Below are positions 48,886 to 54,510 of a stretch of DNA of 64,000 bases, piece by piece. The notes below the pieces were generated by a model. That model saw nothing but the letters and a program-made list of their open reading frames with translations, searched no databases and was not told the DNA's origin. Position 1 is the first letter of the stretch, and each line of letters starts with the position of its first letter. Origin of the DNA: Escherichia coli (lineage in GTDB: Bacteria > Pseudomonadota > Gammaproteobacteria > Enterobacterales > Enterobacteriaceae); the NCBI RefSeq assembly GCF_009931435.1, contig NZ_CP043414.1, one strand, 5' to 3'. The position numbers and the translations under genes were made by a program.

Positions 48886-49914
48886 ATGAGCCTGGAAAGC
48901 GAAGAAAAAGACCAAACAGAAAAAAAGCTGATCACCATGCGTGACGTGGCGAATGCTGCCGGGGTGAGTATTTCTACCGTTTCGCGTATCCTGGATGAAA
49001 GATTACCGCCATCTAAAAGCGCTTCTGCCGAAAAAGTACGCCAGGTCGCACGCGAATTGGGCTATCGTCGGGATTATGTTGCCTCCAGTCTCCGTCGCGG
49101 CGGCACCGGGACACTTGGTGTATTAGTTCCACGCCTGACTGATGCAGTTACTGCAATGTTGTTTGAAGAAATCGCTAAAGCAGCGTCGCATCGTGGTTAC
49201 TTCGCAGTGGTCGCGACTTGTGGAGACGATCCCCAGCAAGAGCGAGAATCTGTAGAATCACTTCTCGACAGGCGGGTCGACGGCTTGATTATGTCAACCT
49301 GTCGCCTCGGCGATCCCCTACCGCAAACTTTGCGTGAAAGGGATATTCCCCATGTGCTCGCCCTGCGTACTGATGGTGTTAGCCCATCATCCATCGGCGA
49401 TGATGAACTGGGTGGTTACCTTGCTACTCGCCATCTTATTGATTTAGGACATAAAAACATCGGTTTGATAGGTGGCCCGGATTTTGCCTCAAATGCGCTT
49501 AATCGCCGTAAAGGTTTTGAAAAGGCAATGCGCGAAGCCGGACTAACTATACAGCCGCAATGGTGCTGTTCATCAGACTTTAACATCCAGTCGGGAGAAG
49601 AAGCAGGGATGAAACTCCTCAGAACGACTCCTGCTCCAACCGCTATTTTTGCGGTAAATGACGAAATAGCGATTGGTGTGGTTGCTGCCGCTCACCATTT
49701 GGGGATAACAATCGGCCAAGAGTTGTCGTTAGTGGGTTATAACGACATTCCTCTGGTCAGCCGACTTCCTGTGGCGCTCACTTCCGTAAGAACGCCGCTA
49801 GAGCATATCGCCAGTAATGCTGTGGACATGTTGATTAATGCCGACAGTGGCCGCTCTTTGCGTACAACCATACCGACTTTAATACCAAGAAAATCAACGA
49901 GTTCACCCAAGTAA
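48886..49914 (+). CDS. LacI-family transcriptional regulator (accessory locus gene 3), 342 aa
   Basis: ORF track; N-terminal HTH ITMRDVANAAGVSISTVSRIL; periplasmic-binding-protein-like effector domain; GGGAG ribosome-binding site 6 nt upstream. Confidence 0.85.
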   Translation: MSLESEEKDQTEKKLITMRDVANAAGVSISTVSRILDERLPPSKSASAEKVRQVARELGYRRDYVASSLRRGGTGTLGVLVPRLTDAVTAMLFEEIAKAASHRGYFAVVATCGDDPQQERESVESLLDRRVDGLIMSTCRLGDPLPQTLRERDIPHVLALRTDGVSPSSIGDDELGGYLATRHLIDLGHKNIGLIGGPDFASNALNRRKGFEKAMREAGLTIQPQWCCSSDFNIQSGEEAGMKLLRTTPAPTAIFAVNDEIAIGVVAAAHHLGITIGQELSLVGYNDIPLVSRLPVALTSVRTPLEHIASNAVDMLINADSGRSLRTTIPTLIPRKSTSSPK

Positions 49915-49923
49915 AGCCTGTCT

Positions 49924-49962
49924 TTCATTTGCTGCAAAACCCGGGGTTTTGCAGCAAATGAA
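49924..49962. terminator. Near-perfect 19-bp palindrome 10 bp downstream of the LacI-family gene stop (terminator-like hairpin, no clear T-tract)
   Basis: TTCATTTGCTGCAAAACCC-g-GGGTTTTGCAGCAAATGAA. Confidence 0.45.
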
Positions 49963-50067
49963 GAACATTAAAATTCTTATATTCCTTCCCTGATTTTGTG
50001 ATCCCTGCTGCATTTTTCAACAACTGTTGATTGACAACCTCATTCATCAGGTTCAAATTCAATCTTG

Positions 50068-50093
50068 TGAAAACGATTGCAAGAACGTTTTCA
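50068..50093. promoter_or_regulatory. Second copy of candidate operator TGAAAACG-N10-CGTTTTCA, 58 bp upstream of the DapA-family gene
   Basis: Exact 8-bp inverted repeats with a 10-bp spacer, identical in arms and spacing to 48567-48592. Confidence 0.5.
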
Positions 50094-50150
50094 TTTCGTT
50101 TCTTGCATTGTCCACATAATAAAAAAGACTAAATTATTAAGGAGATAGTC

Positions 50151-51080
50151 ATGATCAATATAGATCTCAGAGGTTTGACCCCGGCACCGGTTACCCCTTT
50201 CAATCGTGATGGTAGTATTGATTTTGATGCTATCCAGCGTCTGGGAAGCTGGCTGGGTAGTATTGACGGCGTTAAAGGGTTAGTTGTACTTGGTCATGCT
50301 GGTGAAGGTACTTTCCTGACACAAGATGAACAGGCCGCTGTGATCCGTGCTTTCGTAAAATCCGTAGATGGCAAGCTGCCTATCATTGCCGGTATCACCG
50401 GTGAAGGGACTGACGTCGCTGCTAAAGAAGCCAAACGTGCCGTGGAAGCTGGTGCTTCAGCAGGCCTGTTATATCCTTCTCATGGATGGTTGCGTTTCGG
50501 CTACCAGGACGGCGCACCACAAGATCGCTACCGCGTTGTCTATGAAGAAAGCGGCCTGCCCTTGATCCTGTTTCAGTATCCTGATGTGACTAAAGCAACC
50601 TATAATCTGCAAACACTGCTGGATATTTCCGCACAACCCGGTGTTTTTGCTATGAAAAATGGTGTACGCAATATGCGTCGTTGGGATACAGAGATCCCGG
50701 TTATCCGCCGCGAGCGTCCGGAATTACAGATCCTCAGTTGCCATGATGAATATCTGGTACACACTGCTTTTGACGTAGATGGTTTCCTTGTCGGCTATGG
50801 CAATATTGCGCCAGAACCGCTCATCGAGATGATCAAAGCAGGTAAAGCTGGCGATTATAAAAAAGCACGCGCGATACATGACCGTCTGCTGCCAGTAACG
50901 AAGTGCGTATATCATCGCGGTTCCCATATGGAAGGAACCGTCGCCCTGAAACACGCGCTGGTTGCTCGCGGTATTCTCGAACATGCTACTGTTCGTTCAC
51001 CGCTATTACCGCTGGAGCATGGTGCCGAAGAAGAAATTCATGCTGCTATGCGTGCAGCTGACCTGCCGCGCGTTAAATAA
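50151..51080 (+). CDS. DapA/NAL-family class I aldolase or dehydratase (dihydrodipicolinate synthase-like) (accessory locus gene 4), 309 aa
   Basis: ORF track; strong AAGGAG ribosome-binding site; family-typical Tyr (LFQYPDVT) and Schiff-base Lys context (FAMKNG). Confidence 0.75.
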   Translation: MINIDLRGLTPAPVTPFNRDGSIDFDAIQRLGSWLGSIDGVKGLVVLGHAGEGTFLTQDEQAAVIRAFVKSVDGKLPIIAGITGEGTDVAAKEAKRAVEAGASAGLLYPSHGWLRFGYQDGAPQDRYRVVYEESGLPLILFQYPDVTKATYNLQTLLDISAQPGVFAMKNGVRNMRRWDTEIPVIRRERPELQILSCHDEYLVHTAFDVDGFLVGYGNIAPEPLIEMIKAGKAGDYKKARAIHDRLLPVTKCVYHRGSHMEGTVALKHALVARGILEHATVRSPLLPLEHGAEEEIHAAMRAADLPRVK

Positions 51081-51351
51081 CTCCGGCAACAGAAAAGAAA
51101 GCAGTATTCTAAATCACTACTCCTGATGGTTATTGCTTTCTTTCACTTAATGCCACATTAACGACGACAGCCACCTTTACATACAATCATAAGGTGGCTC
51201 ATTCTCTTCATCAGCCTATTGTCGCGCCGGGCTATTTTGAATAACTCAGATGTAATAATGATGAGATTGTTAGAATCCAGGCCATAGTACAACGTCTCAG
51301 AAGCCAGAAGGTAAGTAATGCCCTGATCATGGCATGAATTGAAGGAACATC

Positions 51352-52233
51352 ATGAAACTGCTCAGTTTTTCTGTAGATAACGAAGAAAAGTATGGTGCCA
51401 TCGTATCCGATGGAATTATTGACTTGCATAAATTATTTCCCGAACTTCCCGACCTGAAATCATACGTTGCCAGTCAACATTCATTAGACATCGCTTTGTT
51501 TGCAGGTAAAAAAGCCGATTACCATCAGGGCGAAGTGACTTTTCTGCCCGTAATTACTCGACCAAATAAAATCATCTGCGCAGGTATGAACTACCGGGAA
51601 AAATGTGCAGAATTTAATGAAAAAGGTGGCGATCCGACGCTATTTATCCGTTTTGCTGATACTCAGACGGGCCACCGTTGTGGGTTAATAAAACCGACCC
51701 TGAGTAATGAATTTGATTATGAAGGCGAACTGGCGGTAATTATAGGTCGCCAGGGTTCTCACATTCCTGCTGATGAAGCATTTAACTATATTGCCGGGTA
51801 TAGCTGTTATATGGATGGTTCCGTTCGTGACTGGCAGCACAGCTGGTTTACTGCCGGTAAAAATTGGCCTGCAACAGGTGGATTCGGGCCATGGATGGTT
51901 ACGCCAGATGAAATTCCTGACCCTCAAAATCTGAATATTATCACCCGTCTTAACGGCAAGGAAGTGCAGAATGATAATACACATAGCATGCTGCACTCTA
52001 TTAAGGATTTGATTGCCTATATCAGTACTTTCACCACCTTATCGCCCGGTGACGTGATATTAACAGGCTCTCCGGGTGGGGTCGGTAAAAAACGCTCTCC
52101 ACCGCTCTTCTTGTGGCCTGGTGATATTGTTGAAGTTGAGATTTCAAGAATTGGTTGCCTGATAAATCACATTATAAGCGACAACGAAGAGTATCCGGTC
52201 ACTTTACAATCAGAACTCGATAACGCCTGCTGA
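51352..52233 (+). CDS. Fumarylacetoacetate hydrolase (FAH)-family enzyme (hydratase/hydrolase/decarboxylase type) (accessory locus gene 5), 293 aa
   Basis: ORF track; FAH-fold motifs DYEGELAVIIG and ITRLNGKEVQ...GDVILTGSPGG. Confidence 0.75.
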   Translation: MKLLSFSVDNEEKYGAIVSDGIIDLHKLFPELPDLKSYVASQHSLDIALFAGKKADYHQGEVTFLPVITRPNKIICAGMNYREKCAEFNEKGGDPTLFIRFADTQTGHRCGLIKPTLSNEFDYEGELAVIIGRQGSHIPADEAFNYIAGYSCYMDGSVRDWQHSWFTAGKNWPATGGFGPWMVTPDEIPDPQNLNIITRLNGKEVQNDNTHSMLHSIKDLIAYISTFTTLSPGDVILTGSPGGVGKKRSPPLFLWPGDIVEVEISRIGCLINHIISDNEEYPVTLQSELDNAC

Positions 52234-52323
52234 TTATAAAGTTAACGAAAAATTCGGATAGATAGCCTGGCACTTTAGAAATTAACATTAAGTGGTAGGC
52301 AATCCTTTCAAGGAGTATGCGTG

Positions 52324-53610
52324 ATGATCATGCTGCAATTTATTATCGTTTTATTTTTCCTGTTTTTAGGAATGCGTATTGGCGGCATTGGTGTCGGATT
52401 TGCTGGTGGGGCAGGTGTCATCGCCTTGTGCGCCCTTGGTGCAACACCCGGCGATTTACCGATGCTGGTGATCGTTTTTATTATGGTTGTCATCATTGCA
52501 ATTGCTGCAATGCAAGAAGCGGGTGGGATTGACTATCTGGTTGGTTTAACCGAAAAAATGCTTCGCCGCTACCCTCGCCTGCTGGTAATAACTGCACCTC
52601 TGTCTACATGGCTATTAACCATGATGGCCAGTACCGGTCAGGTGTCATTTGCCTGTATGCCGGTTATTGTGGGTGTCGCGAAGGAAAATCAACTTCGTCC
52701 CACCCGGGCGTTGGCGCTTTCGGTTACCGCTTCATTGTTAGGTATTGTTGCCTCGCCTATCTCTGCCGCCGTTATTTTCTTTTCAGGCATCCTGGAAAAA
52801 AATCACCAGGGATGGGGATATTTGCAACTCATTGCCGTTTCTATACCGGCTACTTTATTAGCGTTGATTTGTACTTCGCTTTTTTACCTGTTCTGGGACA
52901 AACTTCGCCAGAATGATCAATTACCCGTACATATGGCTGTAACGAAAAAATCTCTGTCTGCGCCTGTGGTACAGGGAGCTCGTCGCTCAGTACTAATATT
53001 TATTTTTGGCCTAGTTGTAGTACTTTTTTACGCCCTCATTGCCAGTCCGAAAACAGGCGTTATCATACATCCCGTTTTAAATAGTGGACAGGTCCGTATT
53101 TCAGTAATGATGGCTGTAGCACTCGCCATTGTTATGTTTTGCCGGGTAAATGTGAATAACATTCCTGCGACATCAGTTTTTAAAACAGGGATGACGTCAT
53201 GCATCTGTATTTTAGGTGTCGCCTGGCTCGGTTCTACATTCATGGATAGTAACCAGGTGTGGTTTCAAAGCATGATTTCCGGATATTTATTAGATTCACC
53301 ATTGTTGCTGGCAATTATTATTATGCTGGCGTCATGTTTTCTATATTCTCAGGCGGCCTCCACCAAAATACTTTTTCCTATTGCATTAAGTATGGGTATC
53401 GCCCCTGCCACTCTGGTCGCCTGCTTTCCAGCAACGGCTTCTCTTTTTATTTTACCTAACTACCCCACATTATTAGCCGCCGTGACTCTTGATGATACGG
53501 GGTCAACGAAATTAGGAAATCGAATAATCGATCATCCGTTTATTGTTCCTGGTTTAATGGCAACCGTGTTATCGATACTCTTCGCCGCGGGATTCGCATT
53601 GTTTATTTAA
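52324..53610 (+). CDS. DcuA/DcuB-family anaerobic C4-dicarboxylate transporter paralog (accessory locus gene 6), about 428 aa
   Basis: ORF track 52321..53610 (GTG); ATG at 52324; blocks resembling DcuA throughout (GGIGVGFAGG, ASPISAAVIF, KTGMTSCICILGVAWLG, LLYSQAASTK, FILPNYPTLLAAVTLDDTGSTKLGNRIIDHPFIVPG). Confidence 0.8.
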   Translation: MIMLQFIIVLFFLFLGMRIGGIGVGFAGGAGVIALCALGATPGDLPMLVIVFIMVVIIAIAAMQEAGGIDYLVGLTEKMLRRYPRLLVITAPLSTWLLTMMASTGQVSFACMPVIVGVAKENQLRPTRALALSVTASLLGIVASPISAAVIFFSGILEKNHQGWGYLQLIAVSIPATLLALICTSLFYLFWDKLRQNDQLPVHMAVTKKSLSAPVVQGARRSVLIFIFGLVVVLFYALIASPKTGVIIHPVLNSGQVRISVMMAVALAIVMFCRVNVNNIPATSVFKTGMTSCICILGVAWLGSTFMDSNQVWFQSMISGYLLDSPLLLAIIIMLASCFLYSQAASTKILFPIALSMGIAPATLVACFPATASLFILPNYPTLLAAVTLDDTGSTKLGNRIIDHPFIVPGLMATVLSILFAAGFALFI

Positions 53611-53691
53611 AATGTATATGGCAGGAGTCAATATCATCAGACTCATAGTTCACATAAAACAAACTGCAGCATCATCAACATCACTCAGGTA

Positions 53692-53736
53692 TTAAAAATC
53701 CCCAACCAGCCTGTTGGGGATAAATATGTATTTTTC
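53692..53736. terminator. Bidirectional terminator between the convergent Dcu-like gene and ssb
   Basis: TCCCCAAC-cagcct-GTTGGGGA hairpin flanked by A-run (upstream) and T-run (downstream). Confidence 0.65.
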
Positions 53737-53822
53737 AATGTCCCGAGTAGCTACCGGGCAGATATCAATCTGAGGCTGTGGCTAACGCACACTGGCGGTA
53801 ACCACCTGAACCAAAAGAAATC

Positions 53823-54359
53823 TTAGAACGGAATGTCGTCATCAAAATCCATCGGCGGCTCATTAGACGGTGCTGCCGGAGCAGACTGCTGCGGGCGAGA
53901 CTGCGCGCCGCCGCTGAACTGATTGCCGCCCTGCGGCTGCTGAGGCTGACCCCAACCGCCCTGCGGCTGACCACCACCGATATTGCCACCTGCAGGAGCG
54001 CCACCACCCTGACGACCACCCAGCATCTGCATGGTGCCGCCAACGTTTACCACAACTTCAGTGGTGTAGCGATCTTGACCGGATTGATCGGTCCATTTGC
54101 GGGTACGCAGCTGACCTTCGATATAAACCTGAGAACCTTTACGCAGATATTCGCTGGCCACTTCTGCCAGTTTGCCGAACAGCACAACGCGGTGCCATTC
54201 AGTCTGCTCTTTCATCTCGCCGGTCGCTTTATCACGCCAGGATTCGGAAGTAGCCAGCGTAATGTTGGCAACTGCGCCACCATTTGGCATGTAGCGTACT
54301 TCCGGGTCCTGACCCAGATTACCAACGAGAATAACCTTGTTTACGCCTCTGCTGGCCAT
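53823..54359 (-). CDS. ssb: Single-stranded DNA-binding protein, 178 aa
   Basis: ORF track; OB-fold N-terminus; Gly/Gln-rich linker; acidic tail DFDDDIPF. Confidence 0.95.
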
Positions 54360-54510
54360 GTTCGTGTCTCCTGAAAAAAAATCGTTCTGAATAAGTGTAA
54401 ACGCGCGATTGTACCATTACCAATAGCGCTTTTACTATGTTGTGACCTCGGTTCAGGGAAACAAACCTGGCCAGACATTGTTACACAACACTCCGGGTAA
54501 TGCATTCCAA

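What the first reader, a model, noticed from the sequence alone, without database searches (positions are those of the whole stretch)
51081..51351. 271-bp untranslated gap with a hairpin inside the predicted DapA-like/FAH-like/Dcu-like operon
The DapA-like and FAH-like genes are separated by an unusually long spacer containing AGCCACCTT-(14 nt)-AAGGTGGCT. This could be an internal terminator/attenuator, an RNA-processing site or an internal promoter, meaning the enzymes and the Dcu carrier may be differentially expressed.
Basis: seen in the sequence. Interest (0 to 1): 0.3.

Follow-up and report, generated by a model that had tools for sequence, protein, structure and literature searches.

The report
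Gene-loss gap keeping two RNA hairpins
The long gap between two genes of a rare E. coli sugar-acid operon is most likely what was left when a transporter gene was lost. It still carries two inherited RNA hairpins of the ordinary kind that tune how much of each gene in an operon is expressed.

Summary
The gap is 51081-51351 (271 bp).

The window is E. coli. The LacI-DHDPS-FAH-Dcu island lies between yjcB and ssb in 12 of 5426 complete genomes.

**Why the gap is long.** All nearest relatives carry a second MFS transporter gene (MFS2) between DHDPS and FAH. E. coli nests inside that clade, so MFS2 was lost in its lineage.

**What the gap contains:**
A hairpin directly after the DHDPS stop is present in every lineage.
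It recurs 87-106 nt after the stop in five other lineages, with a covarying closing pair.
- About 150 nt of orphan sequence.

**What it is not.** Neither hairpin looks like a canonical terminator in E. coli. There is no Rfam match, and the element is single-copy. The LacI-type operator sits only upstream of DHDPS and of the MFS1/LacI genes, never in a spacer.

**Best reading.** This is a deletion scar that keeps intra-operon stem-loops acting as an mRNA 3'-end barrier or leaky attenuator. An internal promoter remains possible. The finding is ordinary and of low interest.

The parts
50151..51080 (+). DHDPS/DapA-family gene (309 aa), the upstream cistron
   Evidence: ORF. RefSeq annotates it as a 'dihydrodipicolinate synthase family protein'. 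All NCBIfam matches fall below the equivalog cut-offs. It is 91-95% aa identical to the ingroup loci L002-L008 and L082-L134 (84% in the Serratia and Symbiopectobacterium outgroups).
51081..51351 (+). 271-bp untranslated spacer between the DHDPS and FAH genes
   Evidence: Single copy and unannotated in 12 of 5426 E. coli genomes at 99.3-99.6% identity. No match in plasmids. No Rfam family.
51094..51143 (+). Hairpin H1: arms 51094-51106 / 51131-51143, an A-tract / stem / U-tract (TTTCTTTC) architecture that starts 13 nt after the stop codon
   Evidence: -15.6 kcal/mol; z = -4.5. It is homologous to the AGCAGYATTC...ATGCTGCT hairpin of R. terrigena, K. pneumoniae, Dickeya and K. indica. A hairpin at this position is present in all 16 lineages examined and in the outgroups.
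51144..51168 (+). Unstructured C-rich, G-poor linker between H1 and H2. It is part of a C/G = 2.1-2.75 tract covered by the 78-nt windows that start at 51101-51151 (through about 51228).
   Evidence: These values are in the top 5% of 78-nt windows across the operon. The tract is compatible with Rho loading on untranslated RNA; that is inference only.
51169..51199 (+).
   Evidence: The same GCCAC(C)/(G)GTGGC stem lies 87-106 nt after the DHDPS stop in L087, L122, Dickeya, K. indica and L086. 83% of cells are paired, and the closing pair is UA x3 / AU / CG. It is not a dispersed repeat.
51200..51335 (+). Orphan 3' half of the spacer: no detectable homologue, no coding remnant, little structure
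   Evidence: The only variable site among E. coli copies is 51326.
51251..51276 (+). Two extended -10-like motifs: TGTAATAAT (51251-51259) and TGTTAGAAT (51268-51276). They are candidates for an internal promoter.
   Evidence: At least one such motif occurs in 8% of shuffles. The window-wide density is 0.14 per kb on this strand. No good -35 element accompanies them, and they are not conserved because the region has no homologue.
51318..51335 (+). Near-palindrome ATGCCCTGATCATGGCAT just upstream of the FAH Shine-Dalgarno sequence. It contains the only SNP in the spacer (51326).
   Evidence: Sequence; SNP. Its function is unknown.
51341..51354 (+). FAH ribosome-binding site GAAGGA (51341-51346) and ATG (51352)
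   Evidence: Read from the sequence. RBS regions of the same general kind ((A)AGGTG-type) precede FAH in all relatives.
51352..52233 (+). FAH-family gene (293 aa), the downstream cistron
50068..50081 (+). LacI-type operator TGAAAACGATTGCA, 83 nt upstream of the DHDPS ATG. A second exact copy lies at 48579-48592 on the - strand, in the MFS1/LacI intergenic region.
   Evidence: exactly two copies in 64 kb, and none in the spacer at 3 mismatches or fewer; the copy upstream of DHDPS matches the LacI-type pattern TGNAANCGNTTNCA at -80 to -86 in 12 of 12 loci and is the exact 14-mer in 11 of them (TGAAATCGATTGCA in L086). No site is present in any DHDPS-downstream spacer.

Best explanation
The 271-bp gap is what remains of the ancestral intergenic region downstream of the DHDPS gene. 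In the E. coli island's lineage, a second MFS transporter gene (MFS2) that once lay between DHDPS and FAH was lost.

The 5' half of the gap keeps two inherited stem-loops, H1 at 51094-51143 and H2 at 51169-51199. The 3' half is orphan sequence that ends in the FAH ribosome-binding site.

How it most likely works:
1. Transcription starts at the LacI-controlled promoter upstream of DHDPS and runs through the gap into FAH and Dcu.
2. In the RNA, H1 and H2 do not terminate efficiently.
3. Instead they act in cis as a barrier to 3'->5' exonucleases after endonucleolytic cleavage downstream, and perhaps as a leaky attenuator. The untranslated C-rich tract could add Rho-dependent polarity.
4. The result is that the DHDPS segment of the mRNA is more abundant or longer-lived than the FAH-Dcu segment.

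Shown: the anatomy, the conservation of both hairpins, the loss of MFS2, and the absence of an operator in the gap. Inferred: read-through, and the stabiliser or attenuator role.
For: **Gene loss**
- Every locus of the nearest clade has DHDPS - spacer of 222-265 bp - MFS2 (464-465 aa) - 60-100 bp - FAH - Dcu. This covers R. terrigena, K. indica, Dickeya, K. pneumoniae, L086, L087, L122 and L112.
- E. coli groups with these loci in 290/300 bootstraps. The seven MFS2-bearing lineages exclude E. coli in only 8/300. Single-gene trees agree.
- L090, in the sister clade, also has MFS2.
- Deletion scars are documented in relatives. L117 keeps MFS2 residues 443-463 (E = 3e-8) in a spacer of about 280 bp. 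L134, L132 and L121 keep FAH residues 221-242 (E = 5e-8) between DHDPS and Dcu.

**Hairpins are inherited and maintained**
- H1 aligns with the R. terrigena, K. pneumoniae, Dickeya and K. indica hairpins.
- The first 75 nt after the stop fold at z of about -4 in 11 of 16 lineages, although the stem sequences differ between groups. A terminator-like hairpin also follows DHDPS in the Serratia and Symbiopectobacterium outgroups, where the next gene is different.
- H2 recurs at the same distance from the stop in five other lineages, with compensatory changes at the closing pair and loops of variable length.

**Single transcription unit**
- The operator is present upstream of DHDPS in 12/12 loci and is absent from every spacer.
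- In the K. oxytoca-type loci the whole spacer is about 143 bp and is filled by hairpins up to the FAH RBS. Little room is left for a promoter.

**Known mechanism of this kind**
- Protective 3' structures between cistrons, including consecutive ones, reshape operon stoichiometry in E. coli (PMC5927463, read).
Against: - There are no expression data for this rare island, so the RNA role is inference.
- E. coli shows no recognisable MFS2 remnant (best E about 1). Profile searches do not detect the spacer. The deletion is therefore inferred from phylogeny rather than seen.
- Covariation support for H2 is modest: 6 sequences, 29/500 shuffles reach the observed score, and 4 of 10 pairs are invariant. 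Both arms are conserved in sequence, which could instead mean sequence-specific recognition.
- E. coli's H1 has a weakened GC core compared with relatives. It may be decaying.
- Two extended -10-like motifs in the 3' half leave room for an internal promoter.
Confidence: 0.5

Rival explanations
1. Inert relic. The gap is a deletion scar, and H1 and H2 are leftovers of the ancestral DHDPS-MFS2 spacer that no longer affect expression in E. coli.
For: - E. coli's H1 has lost part of its GC core relative to orthologues.
- H2 has no U-tract.
- The 3' half has no homologue.
- All E. coli copies are near-identical, so there is no within-species evidence of selection.
- The conserved MFS2 leader block of relatives has gone.
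Against: - Both stems are still intact and stable (z = -4.5 and -3.2), in a lineage whose proteins have diverged 5-27% from their nearest relatives.
- H1-type hairpins survive every rearrangement seen downstream of DHDPS, including two independent deletions.
Confidence: 0.22
2. Internal promoter. FAH-Dcu is transcribed mainly from a promoter in the 3' half of the gap, with H1 and H2 ending the DHDPS transcript. That would make two units.
For: - Two extended -10-like motifs lie on the + strand at 51251-51259 and 51268-51276, against a window density of 0.14 per kb.
- In some relatives, H1 or H2 scores like a true terminator: L086 H1 +4.9, K. indica H1 -4.2, L090 H2 -2.5, against +0.8 for the control. 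This would imply a downstream promoter there.
Against: - The motifs have no -35 element, and at least one such motif occurs in 8% of shuffles.
- There is no LacI-type operator in the gap, so pathway genes would escape the pathway's regulator.
- K. oxytoca-type spacers leave little room for a promoter.
- The general promoter scan is at chance level.
Confidence: 0.18
3. Efficient Rho-independent terminator. H2, alone or with H1, stops most transcription after DHDPS.
For: H2 is a stable GC-containing stem followed by a pyrimidine-rich tail. The orthologous second hairpins in L088, L089 and L090 are followed by T-runs.
Against: - In E. coli the loop is 13 nt and the tail CATTCTCT has 4 U in 8.
- The score is -59 for H2 and -37 for the H1 core, against +0.8 for the ssb terminator.
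- The terminator scan finds nothing in the gap.
Confidence: 0.05
4. The inverted repeat is a DNA binding site for a dimeric regulator, or the gap encodes a small RNA or small protein.
For: Both arms of H2 are conserved in sequence (TAAGGTGGC in 4 of 6 lineages, TAAGGTG in 5 of 6), not only in pairing. Small ORFs exist in the gap: 22 aa on the + strand, and 44 and 65 aa on the - strand.
Against: - The distance between the conserved cores varies from 15 to 23 nt among lineages. That fits an RNA loop and does not fit a fixed-geometry DNA site.
- No start codon is consistently placed after the SD-like arm (sequences).
- The small ORFs lie in sequence with no homologue.
- There is no Rfam hit, no promoter-like site on the - strand in the gap, and no extended -10 motif on the - strand.
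Confidence: 0.05

Closest known systems
Intercistronic protective 3' stem-loops that cause differential decay within operons (the malE-malF type; the genome-wide set of Dar & Sorek 2018, PMC5927463)
   Same: Stable stem-loops lie directly downstream of the 5' cistron of a catabolic or transport operon. There are two consecutive hairpins. They are conserved in orthologous operons of other Enterobacterales. They have no efficient terminator features. The downstream genes include membrane transporters.
   Different: - The malE-malF element is a multi-copy REP sequence. H1 and H2 are single-copy and locus-specific.
- Most structures in the 2018 survey lie inside coding sequence, whereas these lie in a long untranslated gap.
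- No 3' ends or half-lives have been measured here.
Leaky intra-operon Rho-independent terminators (attenuators)
   Same: H1 has the A-tract / stem / U-tract layout. In K. indica and L086 the orthologous hairpin scores like the bona fide ssb terminator. Second hairpins followed by T-runs occur in L088, L089 and L090.
   Different: In E. coli the H1 core is weak (-5.2 kcal/mol), and H2 has a 13-nt loop and no U-run. Both score far below the control.
Gene-deletion scars in accessory operons
   Same: E. coli nests phylogenetically among MFS2-bearing loci. The gap (271 bp) is similar in size to the proven scar in L117 (about 280 bp). A second proven scar in this operon family involves FAH, in L134-type loci.
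   Different: No coding remnant can be recognised in E. coli, so the deletion end-points cannot be mapped.

Membership tests
Rho-independent (intrinsic) terminator | GC-rich stem of about 5-14 bp with a short loop (3-8 nt) | tested here: not met
   H2 has a 9-bp stem with 5 G-C pairs, but its loop is 13 nt. H1 has a loop of 24 nt and only 3 G-C pairs in 13. The scan with a loop of 3-8 nt finds no site in the gap.
Rho-independent (intrinsic) terminator | A U-tract immediately 3' of the stem | tested here: not met
   The H2 tail CATTCTCT has 4 U in 8, a tail score of 0.96 and d = -59. The H1 core is followed by TTTCTTTC, but its stem is only -5.2 kcal/mol (d = -37). The control ssb terminator scores d = +0.8. 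The scoring formula was recalled from memory, so the threshold is approximate.
Protective intercistronic 3' stem-loop (differential operon decay) | A stable RNA structure directly downstream of the stabilised cistron, inside a polycistronic unit | tested here: met
   H1 begins 13 nt after the stop and H2 begins 88 nt after it. They fold at -15.6 and -13.6 kcal/mol, with z = -4.5 and -3.2. All genes are on the same strand, with a single operator-bearing promoter region upstream.
Protective intercistronic 3' stem-loop (differential operon decay) | Conservation of the structure in orthologous operons | tested here: met
   An H1-type hairpin is present in all 16 lineages. H2 is present in 6 lineages with one covarying pair.
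Protective intercistronic 3' stem-loop (differential operon decay) | Mapped RNA 3' ends at the structure, and a longer half-life for the upstream segment | not testable with these tools
   This needs Term-seq or rifampicin-decay RNA-seq in a strain that carries the island.
REP / other dispersed intergenic repeat | Many copies per genome with a shared consensus | tested here: not met
   There is one place per genome in the 12 genomes that have it, and none elsewhere, by blastn with 11-nt words. There is one match in the 64-kb window at 3 mismatches or fewer. The core motif occurs at about chance level outside this locus in 1.45 Mb of related loci. No match in plasmids.
Any curated RNA family (Rfam 15) | A covariance-model match | tested here: not met
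   No match at E <= 1 in window 48000-54500. No match in the spacers of five related loci.
LacI-family operator / regulated internal promoter | A copy of the regulon's operator (TGAAAACGATTGCA-like, TGNAANCGNTTNCA) in the gap | tested here: not met
   No copy at 3 mismatches or fewer in 51081-51351. None in any DHDPS-downstream spacer of 12 loci.
Gene-deletion scar | The lineage nests among relatives that carry the gene at that position | tested here: met
   Bootstrap 290/300 for the clade of E. coli plus seven MFS2-bearing lineages. Only 8/300 place E. coli outside those seven.
Gene-deletion scar | A recognisable remnant of the lost coding sequence | tested here: not met
   tblastn of 8 MFS2 proteins against the gap gives a best E of about 1. 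The same test on L117 gives E = 3e-8. nhmmer with the spacer-MFS2-spacer profile finds nothing.

The most novel reading that the evidence does not exclude
H1 and H2 may be parts of a previously undescribed cis-regulatory RNA specific to this LacI/DHDPS/MFS/FAH/Dcu sugar-acid operon family. In the MFS2-bearing relatives, the strongly conserved leader (TCAGACGACA-CTCTGTATATCCGG - covarying hairpin - CCGGTCATTCAGGAAGG) would belong to the same element. The element could be, for example, a ligand- or protein-responsive attenuator that sets transporter expression. E. coli would retain a truncated version after losing its target gene.
Probability: 0.12. Interest if true: 0.45.

Novelty: new member of a known kind. 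Interest (0 to 1): 0.15.

Why it matters
The finding matters little beyond annotation. It explains an odd 271-bp hole in a rare accessory operon of E. coli as a gene-loss scar. It also shows that the region downstream of the DHDPS gene is a hot spot of gene gain and loss across Enterobacterales, with at least five gene orders, while a stem-loop after the DHDPS stop is always kept. If the hairpins set the enzyme-to-transporter mRNA ratio, this would be one more example of differential operon decay or attenuation. The substrate of the pathway is still unknown, and that is probably the more interesting open question at this locus.

Tried and rejected
- **Rfam.** Permissive-threshold searches on the window region and on five related loci found nothing in any spacer.
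- **Profile searches.** An nhmmer profile of the relatives' DHDPS-MFS2 spacers against the whole window gave no hit in the gap. A profile of spacer+MFS2+spacer against the gap alone gave no hit either. MAFFT misaligns the hairpins, so these profiles are insensitive. They do not support sequence homology of the 3' half.
- **By-eye alignment of the 3' half.** I aligned 51200-51320 to the MFS2 leader of relatives (TCAGAT..., ATCCAGG..., CAGAAGGTAAGTAATG as a relic RBS plus ATG). This was rejected as unsupported: z = -0.9 to 2.1, against z = 6-41 among the relatives themselves.
- **MFS2 coding remnant in the gap.** None was found.
- **Leader peptide after the SD-like arm of H2.** No start codon is consistently placed in the six lineages (sequences).
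- **Promoter-like hit TTAACG-18-TACAAT at 51158-51187.** The scan as a whole is at chance level, and the -10 is not conserved in orthologous loops.
- **Dispersed repeat or mobile-element origin.** The element is single-copy.
- **Automated hairpin enumeration by maximal span.** It merged neighbouring structures and gave uninformative terminator scores. It was replaced by hand-defined compact hairpins.
- **First bootstrap run.** It timed out and was redone with a fast distance method.
- **Literature search for the operon's function.** It returned nothing relevant.
- **E. coli population variation.** Twelve genomes and three metagenome contigs carry essentially one allele, with only one SNP in the gap. 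There is no within-species signal.

Full report
**What is there.** The window is E. coli chromosome. The region 45.4-53.7 kb is an accessory island inserted between yjcB and ssb. Its genes are a carbohydrate porin (-), an MFS transporter MFS1 (-), a LacI-family regulator (+), a DHDPS-family protein (+), an FAH-family protein (+) and a Dcu-family transporter (+). The island is present in 12 of 5426 complete E. coli genomes at 99.8% identity or more.

The DHDPS ORF ends at 51080 and the FAH ORF starts at 51352, so the gap is 271 bp. It is 9/9 complementary, and the loop is 13 nt rather than 14. A perfect inverted repeat this long appears in 2.45% of dinucleotide shuffles of the gap.

H1 has 13 bp with one G-T and begins 13 nt after the stop codon. 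The first 75 nt of the gap fold at z = -4.5 and the next 75 nt at z = -3.2. The whole gap is unremarkable (z = -1.4) because its 3' half is unstructured.

**Regulatory frame.** The 14-mer TGAAAACGATTGCA is a typical LacI-family operator. It occurs exactly twice in the 64-kb window: 83 nt upstream of the DHDPS ATG, and in the MFS1/LacI intergenic region. In 12 related loci from different genera, a site matching the LacI-type pattern TGNAANCGNTTNCA lies 80-86 nt upstream of DHDPS. It is the exact 14-mer in 11 of them and TGAAATCGATTGCA in L086. A matching site is also present in the MFS1/LacI region of 11 of the 12 loci, but never in any spacer downstream of DHDPS. The gap therefore carries no copy of the regulon's operator. 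This argues for co-transcription of DHDPS, FAH and Dcu from the promoter upstream of DHDPS; that step is inference.

**Why the gap is long.** I collected loci through four routes:
- a species-representative genome scan with the FAH protein;
- a protein homology search;
- contig look-ups;
- a metagenome scan with the operator pattern.

Together these gave about 50 loci of this operon family. The nearest relatives of the E. coli genes are R. terrigena, K. indica, Dickeya, K. pneumoniae and the metagenomic loci L086, L087, L112 and L122. Their FAH is 73-77% identical to the E. coli protein and their DHDPS is 94-95% identical. All have the order DHDPS - spacer of 226-265 bp - a second MFS gene (MFS2, 464 aa) - 75-100 bp - FAH - Dcu.

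On a concatenated LacI+DHDPS+FAH alignment rooted with Serratia and Symbiopectobacterium, E. coli groups with seven of these lineages in 290/300 bootstraps. It falls outside them in only 8/300, and single-gene trees agree. L090, in the sister clade, also has MFS2. The parsimonious reading is that MFS2 was lost in the E. coli island's lineage.

Such losses are directly visible elsewhere in the family:
- L117, a K. pneumoniae-like locus, has a spacer of about 280 bp that still encodes MFS2 residues 443-463 (E = 3e-8).
- L134, L132 and L121 have a DHDPS-Dcu spacer that still encodes FAH residues 221-242 (E = 5e-8).

In E. coli no coding remnant can be recognised. The 3' half of the gap, 51200-51335, is not significantly similar to the conserved MFS2 leader of relatives. 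The deletion is therefore inferred from phylogeny, not seen.

**The hairpins are inherited.** H1 aligns with the AGCAGYATTC...ATGCTGCT hairpins of R. terrigena, K. pneumoniae, Dickeya, K. indica and L086. It shares with K. indica the A-tract / stem / TTTCTT layout, but its GC core is weaker in E. coli.

More generally, a strong hairpin follows the DHDPS stop in every lineage, whatever gene comes next (MFS2, FAH, Dcu or unknown). The stem sequences are group-specific, and z is about -4 in 11 of 16 lineages. The same holds in the outgroups, where LacI follows DHDPS.

H2 has a GCCAC(C)/(G)GTGGC stem and occurs 87-106 nt after the stop in E. coli, L087, L122, Dickeya, K. indica and L086. Of the pair cells, 83% are paired. 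The closing pair is U-A in three lineages, A-U in one and C-G in one. Shuffle support is modest (29/500) with only six sequences. The distance between the conserved cores varies from 15 to 23 nt. That fits an RNA loop better than a DNA site for a dimeric protein. The exact-core motif is not a dispersed repeat: there are 11 hits in 1.45 Mb, of which 7 are this locus, against about 1.5 expected by chance. It is single-copy in E. coli genomes and absent from plasmids. No Rfam family matches the gap or the orthologous spacers.

**What the hairpins probably do.** I scored compact hairpins with a d'Aubenton-Carafa-type terminator score. The formula was recalled from memory, so it is used only relative to a control.

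| Hairpin | Score |
|---|---|
| ssb terminator in this window (control) | +0.8 |
| L086 H1 | +4.9 |
| K. indica H1 | -4.2 |
| L090 H2 | -2.5 |
| L088 H2 | -14 |
| E. coli H1 core | -37 |
| E. coli H2 | -59 |

The elements look terminator-like in some relatives, but not in E. coli. In the K. oxytoca-type loci the whole spacer is about 143 bp and is filled with hairpins up to the FAH RBS, so read-through must occur there.

Taken together with the absence of an operator in the gap, the most likely role in E. coli is that of intercistronic stem-loops. Such structures block 3'->5' exonucleases after downstream cleavage, or attenuate weakly, and so give more DHDPS mRNA than FAH-Dcu mRNA. This is the known mechanism of the malE-malF type and of the structures surveyed by Dar & Sorek (PMC5927463).

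The 78-nt windows starting at 51101-51151, which reach to about 51228, are C-rich and G-poor (C/G 2.1-2.75, top 5% of windows in the operon). This tract is untranslated, so some Rho-dependent polarity is conceivable. All of this is inference, because no expression data exist for the island.

**Rivals.**
- **Inert relic.** The hairpins may no longer do anything. E. coli's H1 is weakened, and there is no within-species variation to test selection.
- **Internal promoter.** Two extended -10-like motifs (TGTAATAAT at 51251-51259 and TGTTAGAAT at 51268-51276) lie in the orphan half. At least one such motif is expected in 8% of shuffles. They could give a LacI-independent internal promoter. There is no -35 element, no operator and no conservation.
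- **Efficient terminator, DNA-binding site, small RNA or small ORF.** These readings are poorly supported.

**Verdict.** It missed the main cause of the gap's length, which is loss of a transporter gene, and it missed the more conserved hairpin H1. This is a new instance of known, ordinary phenomena and deserves low interest.

Noticed in passing
window 49919-49967: A 24-nt-arm inverted repeat (TGTCTTTCATTTGCTGCAAAACCC G GGGTTTTGCAGCAAATGAAGAACA, 92% complementary, 1 nt between the arms) begins 5 nt after the LacI-family gene's stop. It is probably the terminator or insulator between that gene and the promoter upstream of DHDPS.
   Followed up: no
window 48568-48596 and 50068-50093: LacI-type operator TGAAAACGATTGCA, exact at 48579-48592 (-) and 50068-50081 (+). 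Each copy is embedded in a larger TGAAAACG-N10-CGTTTTCA repeat, which suggests two overlapping sites. The copy upstream of DHDPS is the exact 14-mer in 11 of 12 loci from different genera, with a conserved TTGAC motif about 31 nt upstream. The inducer and substrate of the pathway are unknown, and all NCBIfam matches of the enzymes fall below equivalog cut-offs.
   Followed up: partly
L082 3416-3508; L002 4441-4533; L087 2920-3012; L122 4681-4773 (-): In relatives that keep MFS2, the roughly 90 nt upstream of its ATG are strongly conserved: TCAGACGACA-CTCTGTATATCCGG - hairpin - CCGGTCATTCAGGAAGGTATACC. Of the 9 pairs RNAalifold predicts for the leader (6 of them in the hairpin), 4 show compensatory changes, and there is no Rfam match. 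This is a candidate structured leader or regulatory element. It is absent from E. coli.
   Followed up: partly
L117 (first ~300 nt after the DHDPS stop); L134, L132 and L121 (DHDPS-Dcu spacer): These are independent deletion scars in the same operon family. L117 keeps MFS2 residues 443-463 with an in-frame stop. L134, L132 and L121 keep FAH residues 221-242. At least five gene orders follow DHDPS: MFS2, FAH with 143, 194 or 271-bp gaps, Dcu directly, and unknown.
   Followed up: yes
window 51318-51335: Near-palindrome ATGCCCTGATCATGGCAT just upstream of the FAH Shine-Dalgarno sequence. Position 51326 is the only variable site found in the gap. In the one copy compared base by base (metagenome contig L105) it is G, while this window has A, which creates a GATC.
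   Followed up: no
window 51199-51213 versus L005 / L133 / L101 spacers: A 15-nt exact match, TCATTCTCTTCATCA, between the sequence just after H2 in E. coli and the loop of the second hairpin in K. grimontii-type spacers (local alignment P about 0.005). In those loci a TCACC...GGTGA hairpin sequesters the FAH Shine-Dalgarno sequence and resembles H2. The evolutionary relation between H2 and an ancestral RBS hairpin is unresolved.
   Followed up: partly
window 53698-53721 (- strand): A canonical terminator hairpin, ATCCCCAACAGGCTGGTTGGGGAT followed by TTTTAA, lies downstream of ssb at the right-hand edge of the island. It was used as the positive control for terminator scoring.
   Followed up: partly
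window ~45400-53700; L001: The island (porin, MFS, LacI-family, DHDPS, FAH, Dcu) sits between yjcB and ssb, is present in only 12 of 5426 complete E. coli genomes, and is essentially clonal. Its FAH has no relative above 77% identity in a 5.8-billion-protein collection, so the donor lineage is unsampled. In Dickeya the same cluster lies next to a tRNA gene (L082 7527-7597).
   Followed up: partly
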